DNA of 37,382 bases from Sandaracinaceae bacterium (GTDB taxonomy: Bacteria; Myxococcota_A; Polyangia; Polyangiales; JADJQN01), in NCBI GenBank assembly GCA_947483975.1, contig CANKOL010000006.1:1-37382 (forward strand), given 5' to 3'. Position 1 is the first letter of the stretch. Every line of letters begins with the position of its first letter. This document shows positions 6,001-18,000 of the stretch, piece by piece. A program made the position numbers.

Positions 6001-9000
6001 CGACCAGAACGCGGGCGACGGCGGAGCCGGTTCGAACGCCGGCCTCACGTTCGACCTCGCGAGCCTGCCCGTGCTGACCGTGCCGTAGGTCGCCCTTGCC
6101 GGCGGGTGGAGTCGGTGCGCCGCGCCGACGCCGCCCTCGGCGGTAGAGGTCGGTTGCGCACGCGCTATCAGCGACTGGGACGGTCCTGATACTTTGCGCG
6201 CGTGTTTCTCTCTCCTCGCGCGGCTTTGCCGCTCCCGCGCTCGTCCAGCCCAGGCTGCCGGGCGCGAGCGGGATACCTCATCGAGGGGCAGTTCACGGCG
6301 GGCGCCCTCTGCGACGGCGCCGCGGTTCACGCGCGCCGTGGTTGCCACGAATTCGTCGCCCTATACTCGTGAAAAACAACGTGATAACGAGCGCTTGCAG
6401 TGCATCACTCTCCCTCCCACGCGGTCGCTCGCGGGGGCCGAATTCCTGTGCGTATTCACACGCACTTGGCCTGTCCGTCTTGACAGGGCCGAGCCGGGGG
6501 ATAGGTGCTCGTCGACCGAGCAGCAGCAGCTGGACAGCTGTCGGCGCTGGTGACGTAGCTGAGGCGAATACCTCCACTACTCGCAGGAGACCGTGCCGAT
6601 GAGGGAGTCAGGTCGCAGCCGTGCCTCGATGAGTGCTCGCCCCACAATGGGGTTGTGGGCTGCAATCGTCCTATTGTTCGCCTTGCCGGTCGTGGCTTCG
6701 TGCGGCGGCGGGGGAGAGCCCGCTCATGCGCAGGGCGGGGAGCACGCCGGTGAGCCGTCGGTCCCCGACGCCGACATCGTCATTCCGCCGCGCACGACGC
6801 AACTCGCCACGTACCCCTGCGTCGAGCAGTGCCACGCCGACCGCGTGCCGAACGCCACCCCCCGTCCGCTCCGCGAGTTCCACTCCGCCAAGCACATCGA
6901 GCATGGCGACACGACCTTCTGGTGCAACTTCTGTCACAACTTCGACAACCTGAACACGCTCCACCTGCTCGACGGCCGCACGGCGTCGTTCGACGAGTCG
7001 CAGCGCCTCTGTGGTGAGTGTCACGGGGACAAGCGCCGGGACTGGGCCCTCGGCATCCACGGGCTGCAGACGGGCGCCTGGAACGGCGAGAAGACCCGCC
7101 GCAGCTGCACCGCCTGCCACGACCCGCATTCGCCACGCCGTCCGAGGTTCCAAGCCCTGCCGGCGCCGCACCCCCGCACAGGAGCGCGATGAGCGACGAT
7201 CAGAATACCTGCAGCGAGATCACGGACCAGAACCTCATCGACGATGAGGAACTCGCCGCGTCGCTGGTCGCCGGCGTCGAGATGGCACAGGCCACTCGAC
7301 GAAGCTTCCTCGCAACGATGGCTAGCGCTGCGGGGGCCGCGGTCGTCGCCTCCACCGGCTGCGACAGCGCTGTTTTCGAGAAGTACACTCAGAAGCACTA
7401 CAAGGAACTGTCGGCCGCCGACAAACTGAAGGTCATCGCGCGCATCGAGGCCGAGGCTCATGAGCGCTTCGGCATCGACGTGAAGGTGTCCGACCCGCAG
7501 CCGCTGCCAGGTGTCGGCTTCGCCTACGCGCTGAACCTGTCCTACTGCATCGGCTGTCGACGTTGTGAATACGCCTGCGCCCGCGAGAACAATACCTCGC
7601 GCGACCCCGAGATTCACTACATCCGCGTCCTCGCCATCGAGAAGGGCACGATGTCGGTCGAGGAGTCGGAGAGCAACTACACGGGAGCGGTCCCGGAGCC
7701 CGACAAGTACTACATGCCGGTGCAGTGTCACCAGTGTGACCATCCGCCATGCGTCCGCGCGTGCCCGGTTGAAGCGACGTGGAAAGAGAAGGACGGTCTC
7801 GTCGTCGTCGACTACGACTGGTGCATCGGCTGCCGCTACTGTGAGGCTGCCTGCCCATATTGGGCACGACGCTTCAACTTCGCTGAGCCGACGATCCGTC
7901 CGTCCGAGATCAATCCCATCCAGGGCCTCCTGAGCAACCGGGTCCGGTCGGTCGGCGTGATGGAGAAGTGCACGTTCTGTCTGCACCGCACGCGCAAGGG
8001 CCTCTACCCAGCGTGCCTCGAGGTCTGCCCGACGGGCTCGCGCAAGTTCGGGAATCTGCTCGACCCGAACAGCGAGGTCCGCCAGATCATCCAGAGCAAG
8101 CGCATCTTCGTGTTCAAAGAGGAGCTCGGGACCATCCCGCGCTTCTACTACTACTTCGACTGAGCGAGCGCTCCTTGACCCACACGCAATCCATGCCTTC
8201 CCACGTGCTCGGACGTCTTGCGGCGGTTCTCTCGGTGGGGCTCGCTCTGCTCACCGCGTGCGAACCCAAGCCGACCTCCGAAAACCGTCCGCTGGCCGTC
8301 CGCGCGGCGGGAAAGCGCCTCGAGGACATCGCAGCCGGTGACATCTCCGGCAAGATCGGCGGGCGGCAGTTTCGCGCCGCTGATGTGAAGGTCCGAGTCG
8401 AGACGATGGCAGGTCGCGAGCGGGTCGATCTGCTCGTGTCGAGCGACCGCTTGACGCACTGCGGCCTGCCGGACCAGGCCCACGGTGCACGGGTGTGGGT
8501 TCGCTGGAAGGGTACCGTGCCGACTGACGGTACACCTCAGCGCCTCGAGCCTGGGCAGCATGGCGCGATGAGTGTCAACTATGAGTTCTTCGAGCATGAC
8601 CAGTGGGTGGCGCACAGCGGCGGTGCTGCGGTGGTCAGCATCACGCAGGCGTTTGGCGGGTACAGTGGTCGGCTGTGGATCTGCTTCGACGATGGGCGCG
8701 ATAGCTGCGTGACGGGCACCTTCACTGGCACCGAGTGTCGCTCCGAACTCGACGTCGATGACTCGGTCTGGGGAGCGGGAAGAGCAGAGATTCAGACTCC
8801 GACCAAGCGTGCTGAGTAGGTCTTCAGATGTGATGTGAAGGTGCGCGAGCGCGTCGGTGGCACGAGCCTCCACTAGCCTCTCGAGCGAGCGCGTGCCCCA
8901 GCCGTGACCCCATCCGTGGGCGCGAAGCTGCGGTCACCGGCCCAGCAAGCGCTCGCAGGACGCTCGAACGAGAGAGGCACCGGCGTGCCACCGAGCACGG

Positions 9001-15000: not shown

Positions 15001-18000
15001 GTTGCTGCCAAACCCGAAGTAGAGATAGCGGCCCGACGCGGCGGACAGCATTCCCATATACAACTCGTGGAAGGCCTCGCAGCCGAGGAGGAAGAGGTTC
15101 ACGGGCAGCGTGACCTTCATGACCTCCTTGAGGTACACGAAGACGCTGTCCTTCACCTTCAGCGGCGTGTTCAGCCGTACGATGTAGAAGATGAACGTGA
15201 GCAGCGCCGGGCCGGACGCGCCAGCGCTGATCAGAAATCGCGGGGCGAGGATCGCGGTGTGCCAGAAGTGCCTGGCGCCGAGGCCGGCGAGCAGGAACGC
15301 AGTCACCACGTGAATGCTCAGTGCCCAGCCGATGGAGATGAACACGAACGGCAGATATGCCCAGCCGTTGGGCTCGATCCCGTTGTAGCGCTTCCATAGG
15401 AGGTAGCCCGGGATGTGCAGGTTCAGGACGATGTAGCCGTTGAACACCAGCACGTCCCACGAGAGCATCGAACTCGGGAGGTTGAGCTTCCCGATGGGCG
15501 GCATGAGGTGCCAAAGCCGCTCGGGACGGCCCACATCGGTGACGATGAACATCAGGCAGAGGATGATCGCGACGAACGCGAGGATCTCGCCGAGCAGCAC
15601 GACCTCTTTGATGTCGGCGCGGTGGTAGACGTACGCCGGTGTGACGAGCACCGCCGCGGCCGCCGCAACACCCACGAAGTACACGAAATTCGCGATGCCG
15701 AGGCCCCAGCTCACCTGGTCGTTCATGTTGGTGACGCTGAGACCGATCGTGATGTGCTCGTAGTAGTGAAACGCACCGTACAGCGCGATCAGCGAGAGCG
15801 ACACGACCCAAGCGTAGAAGAGCCTCCCTCCGCGCGCGGCGAAGGTGACCATGTGAAGCAAATACGACAGATAGCGGACGATCAGCATCGGCAGTCTCCG
15901 GCCCGCGCCATCCCCGTCACCGAGAGAACGCGACTAACCTGCGACGTGCGGGTAAGCCCATTTGCCGCCGCTAGCAGGCGGACCAGGCGTCCGCCTTGCG
16001 TCGCGTCGCCCGTCGTGTCGGGGGGCGAATGCAGGAATTCACACGGGTTCATGCGCCACATTCCTGCTCGTTTCCGCTATTTTCACTGGGTCGCACTCCG
16101 TCGTCGGACACGGCCCGGCTCGCCGCACGCAGGGAGACGACTCCCCCGGTCGACCGTCCGCTCGACGCTGGTCCACGTCAGATGGTGGTCTTGGAAGGGA
16201 CCGCGATCTTACGAAGCAGCTCGGCGCTCGAGTTGCCCATCATGTCGACGACCGAAGACGGCACGACGACGACGGTCGAATTGTGCCGCATTCCCTCGAG
16301 CAGCACGCTCATCGCCCGCAGATGCAAGGCGGTCGGGTTGTCGATGTACGACTTTGACGACTCGGCGAACATCTCCGAGACCTTGCGCTCAGACTGGGCG
16401 AGGATGATTCGGGCCTGGCCTTCCTTGTCCGCCTGCGCCTGCATCGACATGGCGTCCTGCAGGCCCTGCGGGATCCGCACGTCCCGGATCTCGACCGCGA
16501 CGACCTGAATGCCCCAAGGCTCGGTCCTCGCGTCGATGATGCCGCGGAGCATCTCGTCTACCTTGTCGCGGCCGGAGAGCATCAGCGCGAGCTCGGTCTT
16601 GCCGATGACCTCACGCAACGCAGTCTGGGCCGCCCAGAAGATGGCGTCGCGGTAGTACTCGAGCTCGAGCGCCGCCTTCGCGGGATCGACGACGCGCCAG
16701 AAGAGAACGGCGTCCACGTCCATCGGGACGGTGTCCTTGGTCAGCGTCTGCTCAGCGTTGAACGGCGTCGCCACGGTGCGGGTGTCCACCCACATCGTGA
16801 TCGTGTCGAAGAGCGGGAGCACGAAGAACATTCCCGGGCCCTTGAGGCCGTGGAACTTACCGAGGCGCAGGACGACGGCCTTTTGCCACTGCTTGCCGAC
16901 GCGCACGCTGAGCGCGATCAGCACCGCGAGGGCGACGAGGACACCGGGGATGAGTGGATCTCGGAGCGTGGCCCCGACCAACCCAGCCAGCCCGAGGAGT
17001 GCCAGCACGATACTGACGATCAGCGGATGGAGAACCATGTGAGCGAGACTCCTTTTGAACCAGGCGCTACCGAACCGCGCACACTAGCGCGCGGAGCGGC
17101 CCGAACGATCACCTGAAGTCTGCCGGTATGGGTTGAGCGACGTCAATAGTGATGGACCTCGGCCTCGACCGAGGCAGCCCATGCTCCGTTTGGCCCCGAG
17201 ATCTCGGGCGGGCGCGCTGGCTTTCGCGACGCCGTGGGCGTCGGCTCGACAGTCAGACGACGTCGGTGAAAAGTCTCGCCGTGAAATACGAGCCCGAGTC
17301 GCGGTCGCTTCAGTTCGCATCCGCGGACGAATTGGACGCGTTTCATCGCGAGCTCACCGGTCTGCTCCGGGAGGTGACGATCTCGGTCAGCTCGACCACG
17401 AAAGACGCCAACGAGGCCCGCGACCGTGCCCGCGAAGTCCTGCGCGAGTTCAAGGTCGTGACGCGCATCCTCAACGCCATCCGCAAGCGCGCCGACCGCC
17501 CCGACCGCGTCGAACCAGGGCGCGCCGGGCCTCGCGTGGAGGCCGAGCCGGAGGGAGGCGACGCGGTCGTGGCGGAGCCCGCCATGAGTAGCGACGCGAG
17601 CGGTGCGTCGGATCCGGGGCCTGCTCCCGAGGTCGCGCGCTTGCGGCCGGAGTAGGCCCGTGGCAGTGGGACGCAGTGCTCCGCCCGAGTGAGATGTCGG
17701 CAGCTCGGCGCGCTCTGACCGGAGCGTTCGTCGCGCTCTGCGTCGTGGCGCAGCTCGTGACGACCGCCCACATGGTGCTCGTCCAGCACGCGTTCTGCTC
17801 GCTCGACGGGGAGGCCGTCGACGCCCCTCGGAGCGCCCGCCCTTCGGCTCCCTGCGCGCACTCGCAGGACGTCGACTCGCTCGGCACCGCTCACGACGAG
17901 CCGGCGATCGACGCGCACAACCACTGCGAGCTCGCGGTGGACCGCTCGAGCAGGTTGGCGCTCGCGCCCGCGCTCGCCGTCGTCGTGCAGGCGTCGGCGC

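What a model noticed while it worked through the whole genome (the two positions that open the first line are those of the whole stretch)
6599..15888. Membrane-anchored 32-heme cytochrome in a NrfC/NrfD-type quinol module operon
g00178 (C6:10431-12626, 731 aa, no Pfam row in the tables) carries 32 CXXCH haem-binding motifs, one per 23 residues, behind an N-terminal membrane anchor of the NapC/NirT kind. It sits in an operon: g00174 (3 CXXCH, lipoprotein signal), g00175 (NrfC-like 4Fe-4S protein with twin-arginine signal), g00176 (lipoprotein), g00177 (9 CXXCH), g00178, and g00179 (NrfD-like membrane subunit). A second NrfD paralog, g00180, lies convergent behind it. That makes 44 haem sites joined to a quinol-oxidising module, a candidate long-range electron conduit of a lake-water Polyangiales. 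The haem number is a family trait: 39 of 39 homologues examined (34-79% identity, 706-803 aa) have 32-34 CXXCH.
Evidence so far: CXXCH counts over all proteins. Operon and Pfam rows. N-termini, motif spacing of 14-51 residues and counts in homologues P0163-P0201. Homologue search: 346 proteins at E<=1e-3; sources name them hypothetical, cytochrome c3 or NapC/NirT family, and the named ones come from Myxococcota/Polyangiaceae MAGs. Other multihaem genes here: g00083/84/86 (8, 12, 10), g01442 and g03832 (MtrC/OmcA-like, 10 each), g01936 (18), g02488 (13).
(Added by a program. Inside this text positions count along the whole contig: contig position 1 is position 1 of the stretch shown here. "Call 12" and the like, gene names such as g00115 and contig names such as C1 are that model's own, and its searches are not shown. 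The text may have been shortened before it was handed on; [...] marks where a part breaks off. The agent that wrote the report below was given it as the finding of a first reader that could run no searches.)

Follow-up and report, generated by a model that had tools for sequence, protein, structure and literature searches.

The report
Membrane-anchored 33-haem cytochrome electron conduit
This lake-water myxobacterium carries a real gene for a cytochrome with 33 haem sites next to a membrane quinol module, and in related bacteria the same genes sit beside an outer-membrane pore and further cytochromes, so it is probably a wire that carries respiratory electrons across the cell envelope.

Summary
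Window 10431-12626 (+) encodes a 731-aa protein with 32 CXXCH plus one conserved CX3CH. That makes 33 haem sites using all 66 cysteines, or 22 residues per haem.

It lies in the gene row A-B-C-D-E-F. A is a 4-haem lipoprotein, B a Tat-exported 4x[4Fe-4S] protein, C a lipoprotein of no known family, D a tail-anchored 9-haem cytochrome, E the 33-haem protein and F a NrfD-family subunit. A 68%-identical F paralogue, G, lies convergent. B and F score closest to DsrO and DsrP, not NrfC and NrfD, and stay below the cut-offs.

The main new finding is context. In 30 related loci, D accompanies E in all 30. A roughly 26-strand outer-membrane barrel with 10- and 12-haem cytochromes is present in 23-25, and a Rieske/cytochrome b pair in 19, often all on one strand. 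In this genome the barrel module lies on contig C3, and no orthologous Rieske/cytochrome b pair was found.

Best reading: this is the inner-membrane and periplasmic half of an extracellular electron-transfer conduit, direction unresolved. It is a new variant of a known kind. Everything rests on sequence and gene neighbourhood, with no biochemistry.

The parts
6593..7192 (+). A: tetrahaem lipoprotein cytochrome c (3 CXXCH plus CX3CH at residue 76; lipobox VVAS-C).
   Evidence: A 14-sequence alignment (A4) shows four conserved haem motifs; the first is CX3CH in this clade and CXXCH in others. Pfam Paired_CXXCH_1 scores 23.9 bits against a cut-off of 20.6. No PDB sequence match at E<=1.
7186..8163 (+). 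B: Tat-exported ferredoxin-like subunit with four Cys groups for 4x[4Fe-4S]. It overlaps the end of A by 7 nt.
   Evidence: Sequence (ATRRSFL signal; CxxCxxCxxxC, CxxCx4CxxxCP, CxxCxxCxxxCP, CxxCx11CxxxCP). Pfam Fer4_11 scores 69.3 bits. Best NCBIfam match is DsrO at 165.2 bits (cut-off 200); NrfC scores 106.6 (cut-off 377.6). PDB sequence matches: ArrB-type 6cz7_B at 1.5e-37 and PsrB 2vpw_B at 1e-32.
8193..8819 (+). C: conserved lipoprotein of unknown fold, with four invariant Cys and no cofactor motif.
   Evidence: Lipobox LLTA-C. No Pfam or NCBIfam family. Atlas look-alikes are unnamed. Found in 24 of 30 related loci, usually directly after the NrfD-family gene. Alignment A6.
8820..9156 (.). 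C-D intergenic gap. The closest named relatives carry a barrel gene and a 12-haem lipoprotein gene at this position.
   Evidence: L030/L031 gene order is A-B-C-barrel-12haem-D-E(-F). tblastn of the barrel and 12-haem proteins against the window found nothing at E<=1e-8. The gap-free order is confirmed by an independent DNA contig.
9157..10434 (+). D: 9-haem cytochrome with an N-terminal signal peptide and a C-terminal membrane helix followed by a basic tail (cytochrome c1-like topology). Its stop overlaps the start codon of E.
   Evidence: A D-like gene is present in 30 of 30 related loci and lies next to E in 28. All 30 have a hydrophobic C-terminal segment followed by Arg/Lys (28 score >=1.6).
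10431..12626 (+). E: 731-aa cytochrome with 33 haem sites and an N-terminal membrane helix.
   Evidence: Family profile against PDB sequences: HmcA 2.8e-19, GSU1996 (3ov0) 1.1e-16, MtrA chain 6r2q_A 8.5e-16, NrfH 3e-9. AF2 model has pLDDT 72.3 and pTM 0.41, with short helices only.
10431..10652 (+). E residues 1-74: membrane helix plus haems 1-2, NrfH-like.
   Evidence: Profile positions 15-74 align to NrfH 2j7a_C residues 12-73 at E 3e-9. NCBIfam NrfH scores 21.6 bits against a cut-off of 134.2. The top Foldseek rows are NrfH but weak (E 0.16, probability 0.91).
11025..12593 (+). E residues 199-721: about 13 tandem di-haem units, CxxCH-x-[P/A]-H ... CxxCH, 33-45 residues each.
   Evidence: Motif-by-motif listing. 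Invariant extra His in the alignment.
12661..13962 (+). F: NrfD-family integral membrane subunit, about 10 hydrophobic helices, DsrP-like.
   Evidence: Pfam NrfD scores 105.9 bits. NCBIfam DsrP scores 334.3 bits (cut-off 350) and QrcD 41.9. Weak PDB sequence matches to ActC: 6btm_C at 4.6e-4 and 6f0k_C at 8.3e-4. Hydropathy.
14497..15888 (-). G: second DsrP-like NrfD-family gene, 68% identical to F, convergent to the operon and downstream of a Band 7 gene on the minus strand.
   Evidence: DsrP model 346.5 bits. 72% identical to the F gene of L031. One 204-nt RNA-library contig lies on 15134-15337.

Best explanation
Genes A-F (and perhaps G) encode the inner-membrane and periplasmic half of a trans-envelope electron conduit.

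Shown by sequence:
- B (four [4Fe-4S]) and F (NrfD family) form the two-subunit quinol dehydrogenase / quinone reductase module known from Nrf, Psr, Dsr, Qrc and alternative complex III.
- A (4 haems), D (9 haems, tail-anchored) and E (33 haems, anchored by an NrfH-like N-terminal helix) are all exported, membrane-attached c-type cytochromes.

Inferred:
- Electrons pass between the menaquinone pool and A through F and B.
- They then run along D and E, whose densely packed bis-His haems form a wire long enough to cross the periplasm.
- The wire reaches an outer-membrane module made of a roughly 26-strand barrel plus 10-, 12- and 8-haem cytochromes.

That outer-membrane module lies on contig C3 in this genome. 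In relatives it is interleaved with the A-F genes.

The direction of flow is not shown. I favour outward flow, meaning respiration of extracellular Fe(III), Mn(IV) or humic matter when oxygen is short, over electron uptake.
For: (1) The 33 haem motifs are invariant across 39 homologues of 30-79% identity. So are 23 further His, with 4 more nearly invariant. All Cys are used in haem motifs.

(2) Topology. An N-terminal hydrophobic helix precedes haem 1 in 72 of 75 homologues, and D has a C-terminal anchor in 30 of 30 loci.

(3) Conserved neighbourhood in 30 loci (26 genomes plus 2 metagenome contigs):
- D 30, NrfD-family gene 24, B 22, C 24.
- Barrel 23, 12-haem 25, 10-haem 24.
- All eight of B, F, C, 10-haem, barrel, 12-haem, D and E are present in 17 loci, and on one strand in 12.
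- These counts are floors, because loci were cut at 20 kb or at contig ends.

(4) The barrel gene folds as about 26 antiparallel strands (pLDDT 75.7, pTM 0.67). Its model matches 378 PDB chains at E<=1e-3, and the listed top rows are outer-membrane porins, ushers and related barrels.

(5) The own genome holds 10-haem, barrel, 12-haem and 8-haem genes in a row on contig C3, 36-51% identical to the in-cluster genes of L030/L031.

(6) The E profile resembles known haem wires (HmcA, GSU1996, MtrA) and NrfH.

(7) At 22 residues per haem, E is denser than the roughly 33 quoted for MtrA. A low ratio was proposed as a mark of wire-like cytochromes (PMC5566968, passages read). A 27-haem Geobacter protein was modelled at 350 A against a 170 A periplasm (PMC11492766, passage read).

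(8) The FeS plus NrfD-family pair is an established quinone-active module (PMC6303296, passages read).

(9) Cytochrome c biogenesis genes are present.

(10) Short contigs from one lake metatranscriptome library lie on B, C, D, the D/E junction, E and G. This is weak evidence, because DNA carry-over is not excluded.
Against: - No experiment exists: haem attachment, location, partners, potentials and substrate are all unknown.
- In this genome the outer-membrane genes are on another contig, so the link rests on relatives.
- Two of the 30 loci are second copies of E in G165 and G275; they show none of A, B, C, F or the barrel, though one keeps 10- and 12-haem homologues. Two others (L062, L075) have A, B and C but no NrfD-family gene within 20 kb.
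- In 19 of 30 loci D-E directly follow Rieske plus cytochrome b. The native quinol partner of D/E could therefore be that complex, which was not found here in an 81%-complete genome.
- The N-terminal segment of E ends in V-F-A, a possible signal-peptidase site, so E might be soluble.
- The AF2 model of E has only moderate confidence and I could not measure its length.
- The organism has three haem-copper oxidases, which suits either direction of flow.
- F itself was not covered by the RNA-library contigs.
Confidence: 0.62

Rival explanations
1. Same hardware, opposite direction. The conduit takes electrons up from extracellular Fe(II), reduced humics or minerals. It passes some to the terminal oxidases, and some uphill into the quinone pool through the NrfD-type module (and Rieske/cytochrome b in relatives).
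For: The genome has three haem-copper oxidases. Relatives combine two quinone-active modules with the conduit, as current models of neutrophilic iron oxidisers require (PMC5566968, passages read). NrfD-type modules work in either direction (PMC6303296). A lake survey reports that oxidative EET genes track dissolved organic matter (preprint 10.1101/2022.03.26.485925, abstract and passages).
Against: No carbon-fixation or lithotrophy context was examined. The haems appear to be all bis-His, which from general knowledge are usually low-potential and are typical of reductive wires. No Cyc2- or MtoA-type marker was tested.
Confidence: 0.2
2. E is itself a NapC/NirT-type quinol dehydrogenase, like CymA or NrfH, extended by a long haem tail. 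The A-B-F module is then a parallel or independent entry point, not E's partner.
For: The profile matches the NrfH membrane helix plus haems 1-2 at E 3e-9. The top Foldseek rows are NrfH, but weak. Some distant homologues are named NapC/NirT or carry PF03264. Second copies of E in G165 and G275 occur without any A, B or F genes.
Against: The NrfH equivalog model scores 21.6 bits against a cut-off of 134.2, and Pfam PF03264 is not matched in this protein. Only the first two haems align. The quinol-site residues were not tested. The tight conservation of A-B-F-C beside D-E argues for joint function.
Confidence: 0.2
3. A purely periplasmic system. The D/E cytochromes act as an electron store or as a link to soluble periplasmic reductases, with no transfer across the outer membrane.
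For: The window itself has no outer-membrane gene. Large periplasmic cytochromes have been proposed as electron sinks (a title in the reference list of PMC2825233, seen).
Against: Barrel and lipoprotein cytochrome genes are interleaved with these genes in most relatives (23-25 of 30 loci), and homologues exist in this genome on C3.
Confidence: 0.1
4. A DsrMKJOP-type sulfur-metabolism complex, with A as DsrJ, B as DsrO and F as DsrP.
For: The best NCBIfam models are DsrP (334.3 and 346.5 bits) and DsrO (165.2 bits).
Against: All scores are under the cut-offs of 350 and 200. A has four haems and matches no DsrJ model at E<=0.01. No DsrM- or DsrK-like gene lies in the cluster or among the flanking ORFs scanned. 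The partners are multihaem cytochromes and an outer-membrane barrel. dsrAB genes in the genome were not searched for.
Confidence: 0.03

Closest known systems
PCC3/PCC4 porin-cytochrome clusters of iron-oxidising and other Proteobacteria (He et al. 2017, PMC5566968; abstract and passages read)
   Same: One gene cluster combines an outer-membrane barrel, very haem-rich repeat-built cytochromes proposed to span the periplasm, and an inner-membrane redox protein. Function is inferred from genomes only.
   Different: PCC3 uses a 5-helix, di-haem-b-like inner-membrane protein and a soluble periplasmic cytochrome (median 21 haems). Here the long cytochrome is membrane-anchored with 33 sites, and the inner-membrane partners are a DsrOP-like FeS/NrfD pair and, in relatives, Rieske/cytochrome b. 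The host is Polyangiales. Homology between the barrels was not tested.
Shewanella CymA - MtrCAB pathway (recalled; MtrA and NrfH structures matched)
   Same: A NapC/NirT-type membrane-anchored quinol dehydrogenase, a haem wire, and a 26-strand barrel enclosing a cytochrome.
   Different: In Shewanella the periplasm is crossed by small soluble cytochromes. Here one 33-haem polypeptide could combine anchor and wire. The barrel shows no match to any Pfam family, MtrB_PioB included, at E<=1.
Geobacter Rieske/cytochrome b cluster GSU2930-2937 with 10- and 12-haem cytochromes (Butler et al. 2010, PMC2825233; passage read)
   Same: A Rieske plus cytochrome b core is encoded with multihaem cytochromes in place of cytochrome c1. 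This resembles the Rieske-cytochrome b-D-E unit in 19 of 30 related loci.
   Different: This window has no Rieske/cytochrome b. The haem numbers differ (9 and 33). Sequence relationship to the Geobacter genes was not tested.
NrfD-like plus FeS plus multihaem 'menaquinone:cytochrome c oxidoreductase' clusters of Methanoperedenaceae (Leu et al. 2020, PMC7327174; passage read)
   Same: [quoted passage not shown]
   Different: Those are archaeal clusters without an outer-membrane barrel and with far smaller cytochromes.
DsrJOP part of DsrMKJOP, and the wider NrfCD/PsrBC/QrcCD/ActBC module (Duarte et al. 2018, PMC6303296; passages read)
   Same: A periplasmic FeS subunit plus a cofactor-less NrfD-family subunit plus a small multihaem cytochrome. 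F and G score just under the DsrP cut-off.
   Different: There is no DsrM or DsrK. A has four haems, not three. There is no molybdopterin-like subunit as in Qrc or alternative complex III.
GSU1996 dodecahaem 'nanowire' and the HmcA 16-haem cytochrome (PDB 3ov0, 2e84; sequence-profile matches)
   Same: Built from repeated c3/c7-like haem units with very little protein per haem.
   Different: Those proteins are soluble and have 12 or 16 haems. E has 33 sites, a membrane anchor and a regular di-haem repeat.

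Membership tests
NrfD family (PF03916) with ferredoxin-like partner: the 'NrfCD-type' quinone module | Integral membrane subunit matching PF03916 above the gathering score | tested here: met
   F 105.9 bits and G 121.5 bits against a cut-off of 25.8. About 10 hydrophobic helices.
NrfD family (PF03916) with ferredoxin-like partner: the 'NrfCD-type' quinone module | Adjacent Tat-exported subunit with up to four FeS clusters | tested here: met
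   B has a twin-arginine signal and four Cys groups, and Fer4_11 scores 69.3 bits. Here B is three genes away from F, but it is adjacent to the NrfD-family gene in most relatives.
NrfC/NrfD proper (nitrite reductase system) | Score above the NrfC equivalog cut-off | tested here: not met
   TIGR03149 scores 106.6 bits against 377.6. The scanned proteins of the cluster and its flanks showed no NrfA family hit.
DsrMKJOP | DsrP and DsrO equivalog scores above cut-off | tested here: not met
   DsrP 334.3 and 346.5 against 350. DsrO 165.2 against 200.
DsrMKJOP | Trihaem DsrJ plus DsrM and DsrK subunits in the cluster | tested here: not met
   A has four conserved haem motifs and matched no DsrJ model at E<=0.01. 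The other cluster genes are cytochromes and a lipoprotein, and the flanking genes are unrelated.
NapC/NirT (NrfH, CymA) quinol dehydrogenases | N-terminal membrane helix followed by a tetrahaem domain matching the family model | tested here: inconclusive
   The helix plus haems 1-2 match NrfH at profile level (E 3e-9). The NrfH equivalog scores 21.6 against 134.2, and PF03264 is not matched in this protein.
NapC/NirT (NrfH, CymA) quinol dehydrogenases | Quinol-site residues and special ligation of haem 1 | not tested
   The motif here is CASCHTE. I did not have a verified list of the site residues.
Porin-cytochrome complexes (Mtr/Pcc/Ext type) | Outer-membrane beta-barrel gene beside multihaem cytochrome genes | tested here: met
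   Not in the window. Met on contig C3 of the same genome and in 23 of 30 related loci. The barrel fold is predicted with about 26 strands.
Porin-cytochrome complexes (Mtr/Pcc/Ext type) | Barrel belongs to a described family (MtrB_PioB and the like) | tested here: not met
   No Pfam family at E<=1. Nearest Atlas clusters are unnamed, and named ones (outer-membrane barrels) score only 0.91.
Rieske/cytochrome b complexes with multihaem c subunit | Rieske and cytochrome b genes next to the cytochrome c genes | tested here: not met
   Absent from the window. The own genome has only a 34%-identical cytochrome b on C299, and no Rieske match was found (genome 81% complete). The feature is present in 19 of 30 related loci.
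Alternative complex III / Qrc | Large molybdopterin-like subunit fused to or beside the FeS subunit | tested here: not met
   B is 325 aa and aligns only to the FeS part of ActB (residues 680-1020 of 6btm_B, 6f0k_B and 6lod_B).
c-type multihaem cytochrome | Covalent haem at each CXXCH | not testable with these tools
   Only the motifs, their conservation and the presence of cytochrome c assembly genes are available.

The most novel reading that the evidence does not exclude
A single inner-membrane-anchored polypeptide with 33 haems, one per 22 residues, physically bridges the whole periplasm and plugs into a new family of outer-membrane barrel-cytochrome complex. It would be fed by interchangeable quinol modules: a DsrOP-like pair here, and that pair plus a Rieske/cytochrome b complex with a tail-anchored 9-haem 'c1' in relatives. 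That would be a hard-wired trans-envelope circuit needing no diffusible periplasmic carrier. It would occur in an order (Polyangiales) generally regarded as aerobic (from general knowledge) and would be patchily inherited.
Probability: 0.3. Interest if true: 0.8.

Novelty: new variant of a known kind. Interest (0 to 1): 0.6.

Why it matters
Extracellular electron transfer is understood mechanistically in only a few model systems (Shewanella Mtr, Geobacter Pcc/Ext). In those, how electrons cross the periplasm is still debated.

This cluster offers a testable alternative: a membrane-anchored cytochrome with enough haems to span the gap by itself. It is encoded together with both its likely inner-membrane electron source and its likely outer-membrane exit.

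The cluster occurs in 38 of 301 sampled genomes of the order, in 24 of 117 genera. Some of those genomes are assembled in only 5-8 contigs, so a genetically tractable host may exist.

It would also give a concrete molecular basis for the report that lake Myxococcota are the richest in unclassified multihaem cytochrome clusters (preprint 10.1101/2022.03.26.485925, passage read). Ecologically it points to Polyangiales as possible users of iron, manganese or humic matter in stratified lakes.

Tried and rejected
- Complex prediction of F (alignment A5) with E residues 1-140 (from A1): score 0.00, controls not run, no verdict either way.
- Foldseek of the E model against the PDB: no match at E<=0.001. 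Only weak NrfH and MtrA rows appeared.
With E alone it found only distant cytochromes in Methanoperedens, Marinimicrobia and an uncultured archaeon.
- The one metagenome scan yielded only two relevant short contigs, L035 and L036.
- PDB sequence search with A: nothing at E<=1. PDB search with E residues 1-140 alone: only E about 0.02 to the N-terminus of octahaem nitrite reductases.
- Atlas searches for the barrel and for C gave unnamed clusters only.
- Promoter and terminator scan: 0 promoter-like sites and 4 terminator-like sites against 3.7 expected, so uninformative.
- RNA-library contigs leave F and parts of E uncovered. This is no evidence of silence.
- The search of earlier findings was not open.
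- Literature. No paper holds both 'Polyangiales' and 'multiheme cytochrome'. Term searches found no description of this cluster. Term look-ups in PMC11475568, 10.64898/2026.05.27.727921 and PMC12307469 found none of the taxa or subunits sought.
- The Dsr-type sulfur complex was considered and rejected (see rivals).

Full report
OBSERVATION

The ORF at 10431-12626 (+) is 731 aa and holds 32 CXXCH motifs. In 2000 shuffles of its own residues the count had mean 0.57 and maximum 5.

A further CX3CH lies at residues 401-406. In a 39-sequence alignment (30-79% identity to the query) all 32 CXXCH and this CX3CH are invariant. So are 23 more His, with 4 nearly invariant. The protein therefore has 33 haem sites. 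They use all 66 of its Cys, and its 70 His are enough for bis-His ligation throughout. That is one haem per 22 residues.

From haem 7 to haem 32 the sequence is a regular di-haem repeat, CxxCH-x-[P/A]-H ... CxxCH.

There are 346 proteins at E<=1e-3, and hits P0002-P0040 are 706-803 aa with 32-34 CXXCH. Counting CX3CH and CX4CH as well, 70 of the 75 best hits have 33 or 34 sites, and the other five (641-678 aa) have 29-31.

An exhaustive search of 1.84 billion cluster representatives found only 657 proteins at E<=1e-3 and 77 at E<=1e-30. Of those 77, 46 have 32 or more sites. This is a small family.

GENES IN THE WINDOW

- A (6593-7192) is a lipoprotein with 3 CXXCH plus a CX3CH. The CX3CH aligns with a CXXCH in more distant homologues, so A has four haems.
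- B (7186-8163) has a twin-arginine signal and four Cys groups for [4Fe-4S] clusters.
- C (8193-8819) is a lipoprotein with four invariant Cys and no known family.
- D (9157-10434) has a signal peptide, 9 CXXCH and a C-terminal hydrophobic helix followed by RRRGGKK. This is the topology of cytochrome c1.
- E starts on the stop codon of D.
- F (12661-13962) and the convergent G (14497-15888, minus strand) are NrfD-family proteins with about 10 hydrophobic helices. They are 68% identical to each other.

The window thus encodes 46 haem sites. Flanking genes are unrelated: an ABC ATPase, a hybrid histidine kinase, a Dictyostelium-repeat protein, a Band 7 protein and ZnuA.

One contig of an independent lake-water DNA run is colinear with 7812-14211, so the gene order is real.

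WHICH FAMILY IS THE QUINONE MODULE?

- Against NCBIfam, F and G score 334.3 and 346.5 bits on the DsrP model (cut-off 350) and only 42-47 bits on QrcD.
- B scores 165.2 bits on DsrO (cut-off 200) and 106.6 on NrfC (cut-off 377.6).
- In the PDB, B resembles ArrB and PsrB, and F only weakly resembles ActC.

So B and F are a DsrOP-like member of the general FeS plus NrfD-family quinone module (PMC6303296, passages read). They are neither Nrf proper nor a Dsr complex, because no DsrM, DsrK or trihaem DsrJ is present.

THE DECISIVE CONTEXT

I mapped the window's proteins, plus proteins found in relatives, onto 30 related loci. These were:
- 28 stretches from 26 of the 37 other genomes of the same order that matched E;
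- 2 metagenome contigs.

The 11 unfetched genomes had short contigs or weaker matches.

Presence counts (floors, because loci stop at 20 kb or at contig ends):
- A D-like gene accompanies E in 30 of 30, and is directly adjacent in 28.
- NrfD-family gene 24, B 22, C 24.
- A gene of about 470 aa without any Pfam family: 23.
- A 12-haem lipoprotein cytochrome 25, and a 10-haem cytochrome 24.
- A Rieske protein plus cytochrome b: 19 (Pfam assignments).

The commonest layout, all on one strand, is (A)-B-NrfD-C-10haem-470aa-12haem-Rieske-cytb-D-E. All eight of B, F, C, 10-haem, 470-aa protein, 12-haem, D and E occur in 17 loci, and on one strand in 12.

The 470-aa protein folds, with an 18-sequence alignment, into about 26 antiparallel strands (pLDDT 75.7, pTM 0.67). 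Its model matches 378 PDB chains at E<=1e-3, and the listed top rows are outer-membrane porins, ushers and related barrels. It is an outer-membrane barrel of the size class of MtrB (size recalled).

The closest named relatives are MAGs labelled Polyangiales, Sandaracinaceae and 'Proteobacteria', 52-56% identical in E. Their order is 8haem-10haem-A-B-C-barrel-12haem-D-E-F.

Our window lacks the barrel and the 12-haem gene between C and D (338-bp gap; no tblastn hit). However, contig C3 of the same genome carries 10haem-barrel-12haem-8haem in a row, 36-51% identical to the in-cluster genes of L030/L031.

No orthologous Rieske/cytochrome b pair was found in this 81%-complete genome. There is only a 34%-identical cytochrome b on C299. 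The clade nearest to ours also lacks the pair.

WHAT E LOOKS LIKE

A family profile matches these PDB sequences:
- the 16-haem HmcA, E 2.8e-19;
- the dodecahaem GSU1996, 1.1e-16;
- the MtrA chain of the Mtr complex, 8.5e-16;
- NrfH over its membrane helix and first two haems, 3e-9.

The AF2 model (pLDDT 72.3, pTM 0.41) consists only of short helices. Foldseek gives no significant match, and its top weak rows are again NrfH and MtrA.

72 of 75 homologues have a hydrophobic N-terminal segment before haem 1. The segment here ends in V-F-A, so cleavage cannot be excluded.

MECHANISM

Shown: the motifs, their conservation, the topology signals, the family matches and the conserved neighbourhood.

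Inferred:
- D and E, both held at the inner membrane, form a haem chain.
- E, by analogy, is long enough to cross the periplasm. MtrA with 10 haems is quoted at about 100 A (PMC5566968). A 27-haem Geobacter protein was modelled at 350 A against a 170 A periplasm (PMC11492766). Both come from passages read.
- E would then reach the barrel-cytochrome module.

Direction is open. The genome has three haem-copper oxidases and cytochrome c biogenesis genes. The conduit could therefore be an alternative electron sink or an uptake route.

Short contigs from one metatranscriptome library lie on B, C, D, the D/E junction, E and G but not on F. This is weak evidence of expression.

DISTRIBUTION

- At E<=1e-40, E-like genes occur in 38 of 301 sampled genomes of the order (24 of 117 genera). 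None occur in the 3 other genomes of the window's own family. The best matches (52-57% identity) are in another family.
- In a phylum-wide sample, 10 of 401 genomes matched at E<=1e-30. The three outside the order matched only the C-terminal part.
- The cluster's G+C of 67.1% lies in the lowest 1.4% of equal-sized windows of the genome.

Together these facts hint at lateral transfer or patchy loss. No tree was built.

COMPARISON AND NOVELTY

The kind of system is known from genomics:
- PCC3/PCC4 clusters with very haem-rich 'wire' cytochromes (PMC5566968);
- Geobacter's Rieske/cytochrome b cluster with 10- and 12-haem cytochromes (PMC2825233);
- NrfD plus FeS plus multihaem clusters in Methanoperedenaceae (PMC7327174);
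- a preprint noting that lake Myxococcota are richest in unclassified multihaem clusters (10.1101/2022.03.26.485925).

I found no description of this particular family or supercluster in the searches. The preprint's supplementary tables were not readable.

What is new:
- a membrane-anchored 33-site cytochrome with a fixed haem number and 22 residues per haem;
- its obligate pairing with a tail-anchored 9-haem cytochrome;
- its combination with a DsrOP-like module, a barrel without a Pfam family and, in many relatives, a Rieske/cytochrome b complex.

VERDICT

This is a new variant of a known kind. Confidence that it is an envelope-spanning electron conduit is about 0.6, and the direction and physical contacts are unresolved.

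Noticed in passing
proteins P0076-P0120: A second, larger family of about 570-640-aa lipoprotein cytochromes aligns to the C-terminal 55-90% of E. 34 of the 45 have 27 CXXCH (range 23-28). Several are named from Polyangiaceae MAGs.
   Followed up: partly
proteins P0173, P0176, P0180: Distant relatives of E of 1076-1466 aa carry 54, 57 and 73 haem sites, the same repeat architecture stretched further.
   Followed up: no
window 6593-15888: The cluster's G+C is 67.1% against a genome mean of 70.7% (sd 1.4) for 9.3-kb windows, which puts it in the lowest 1.4%. The low values are in B, C, F and G (63-66%). The C3 barrel cluster is not low (71.0%).
   Followed up: partly
G000 contig C3:15698-22069 (L034:3699-10070): The row 10haem-barrel-12haem-8haem resembles most the clusters of L074-L076 (barrel 47-54%, 12-haem 55-61%, 8-haem 52-58%). 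The window's A-F genes resemble most L062/L063. The two halves may therefore have different histories.
   Followed up: partly
L025 (G300:C1:920000-939999) 2-4672: Tandem duplication of the A-B-NrfD unit in a relative, comparable to the extra NrfD paralogue G in this window.
   Followed up: no
window 14497-17038 (-): G lies downstream of a Band 7/SPFH gene (16178-17038) on the same strand, so it may be transcribed with that gene rather than with the cytochrome operon. RNA-library contigs lie on both.
   Followed up: partly
window 3614-6088 (+): An 824-aa protein with nine Dictyostelium-type Cys-rich repeats (PF00526, 235 bits), a Big_5 domain and a lamin-tail domain lies directly upstream of the cluster.
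   Followed up: no
window 1537-3537 (+): A hybrid sensor kinase (two receiver stretches, PAS, HisKA, HATPase) lies two genes upstream and is a possible regulator. Its conservation next to the cluster was not examined.
   Followed up: no
window 17137-19597 (+) and 31861-36393 (-): Three ORFs of 166-455 aa with coding-like GC3 have no Pfam family. A 1511-aa ORF was not examined.
   Followed up: no
L062 (= contig of L030) and L075: Two relatives have A, B and C but no NrfD-family gene within the 20 kb fetched. In L076 the NrfD-family gene sits after the 8-haem gene instead.
   Followed up: partly
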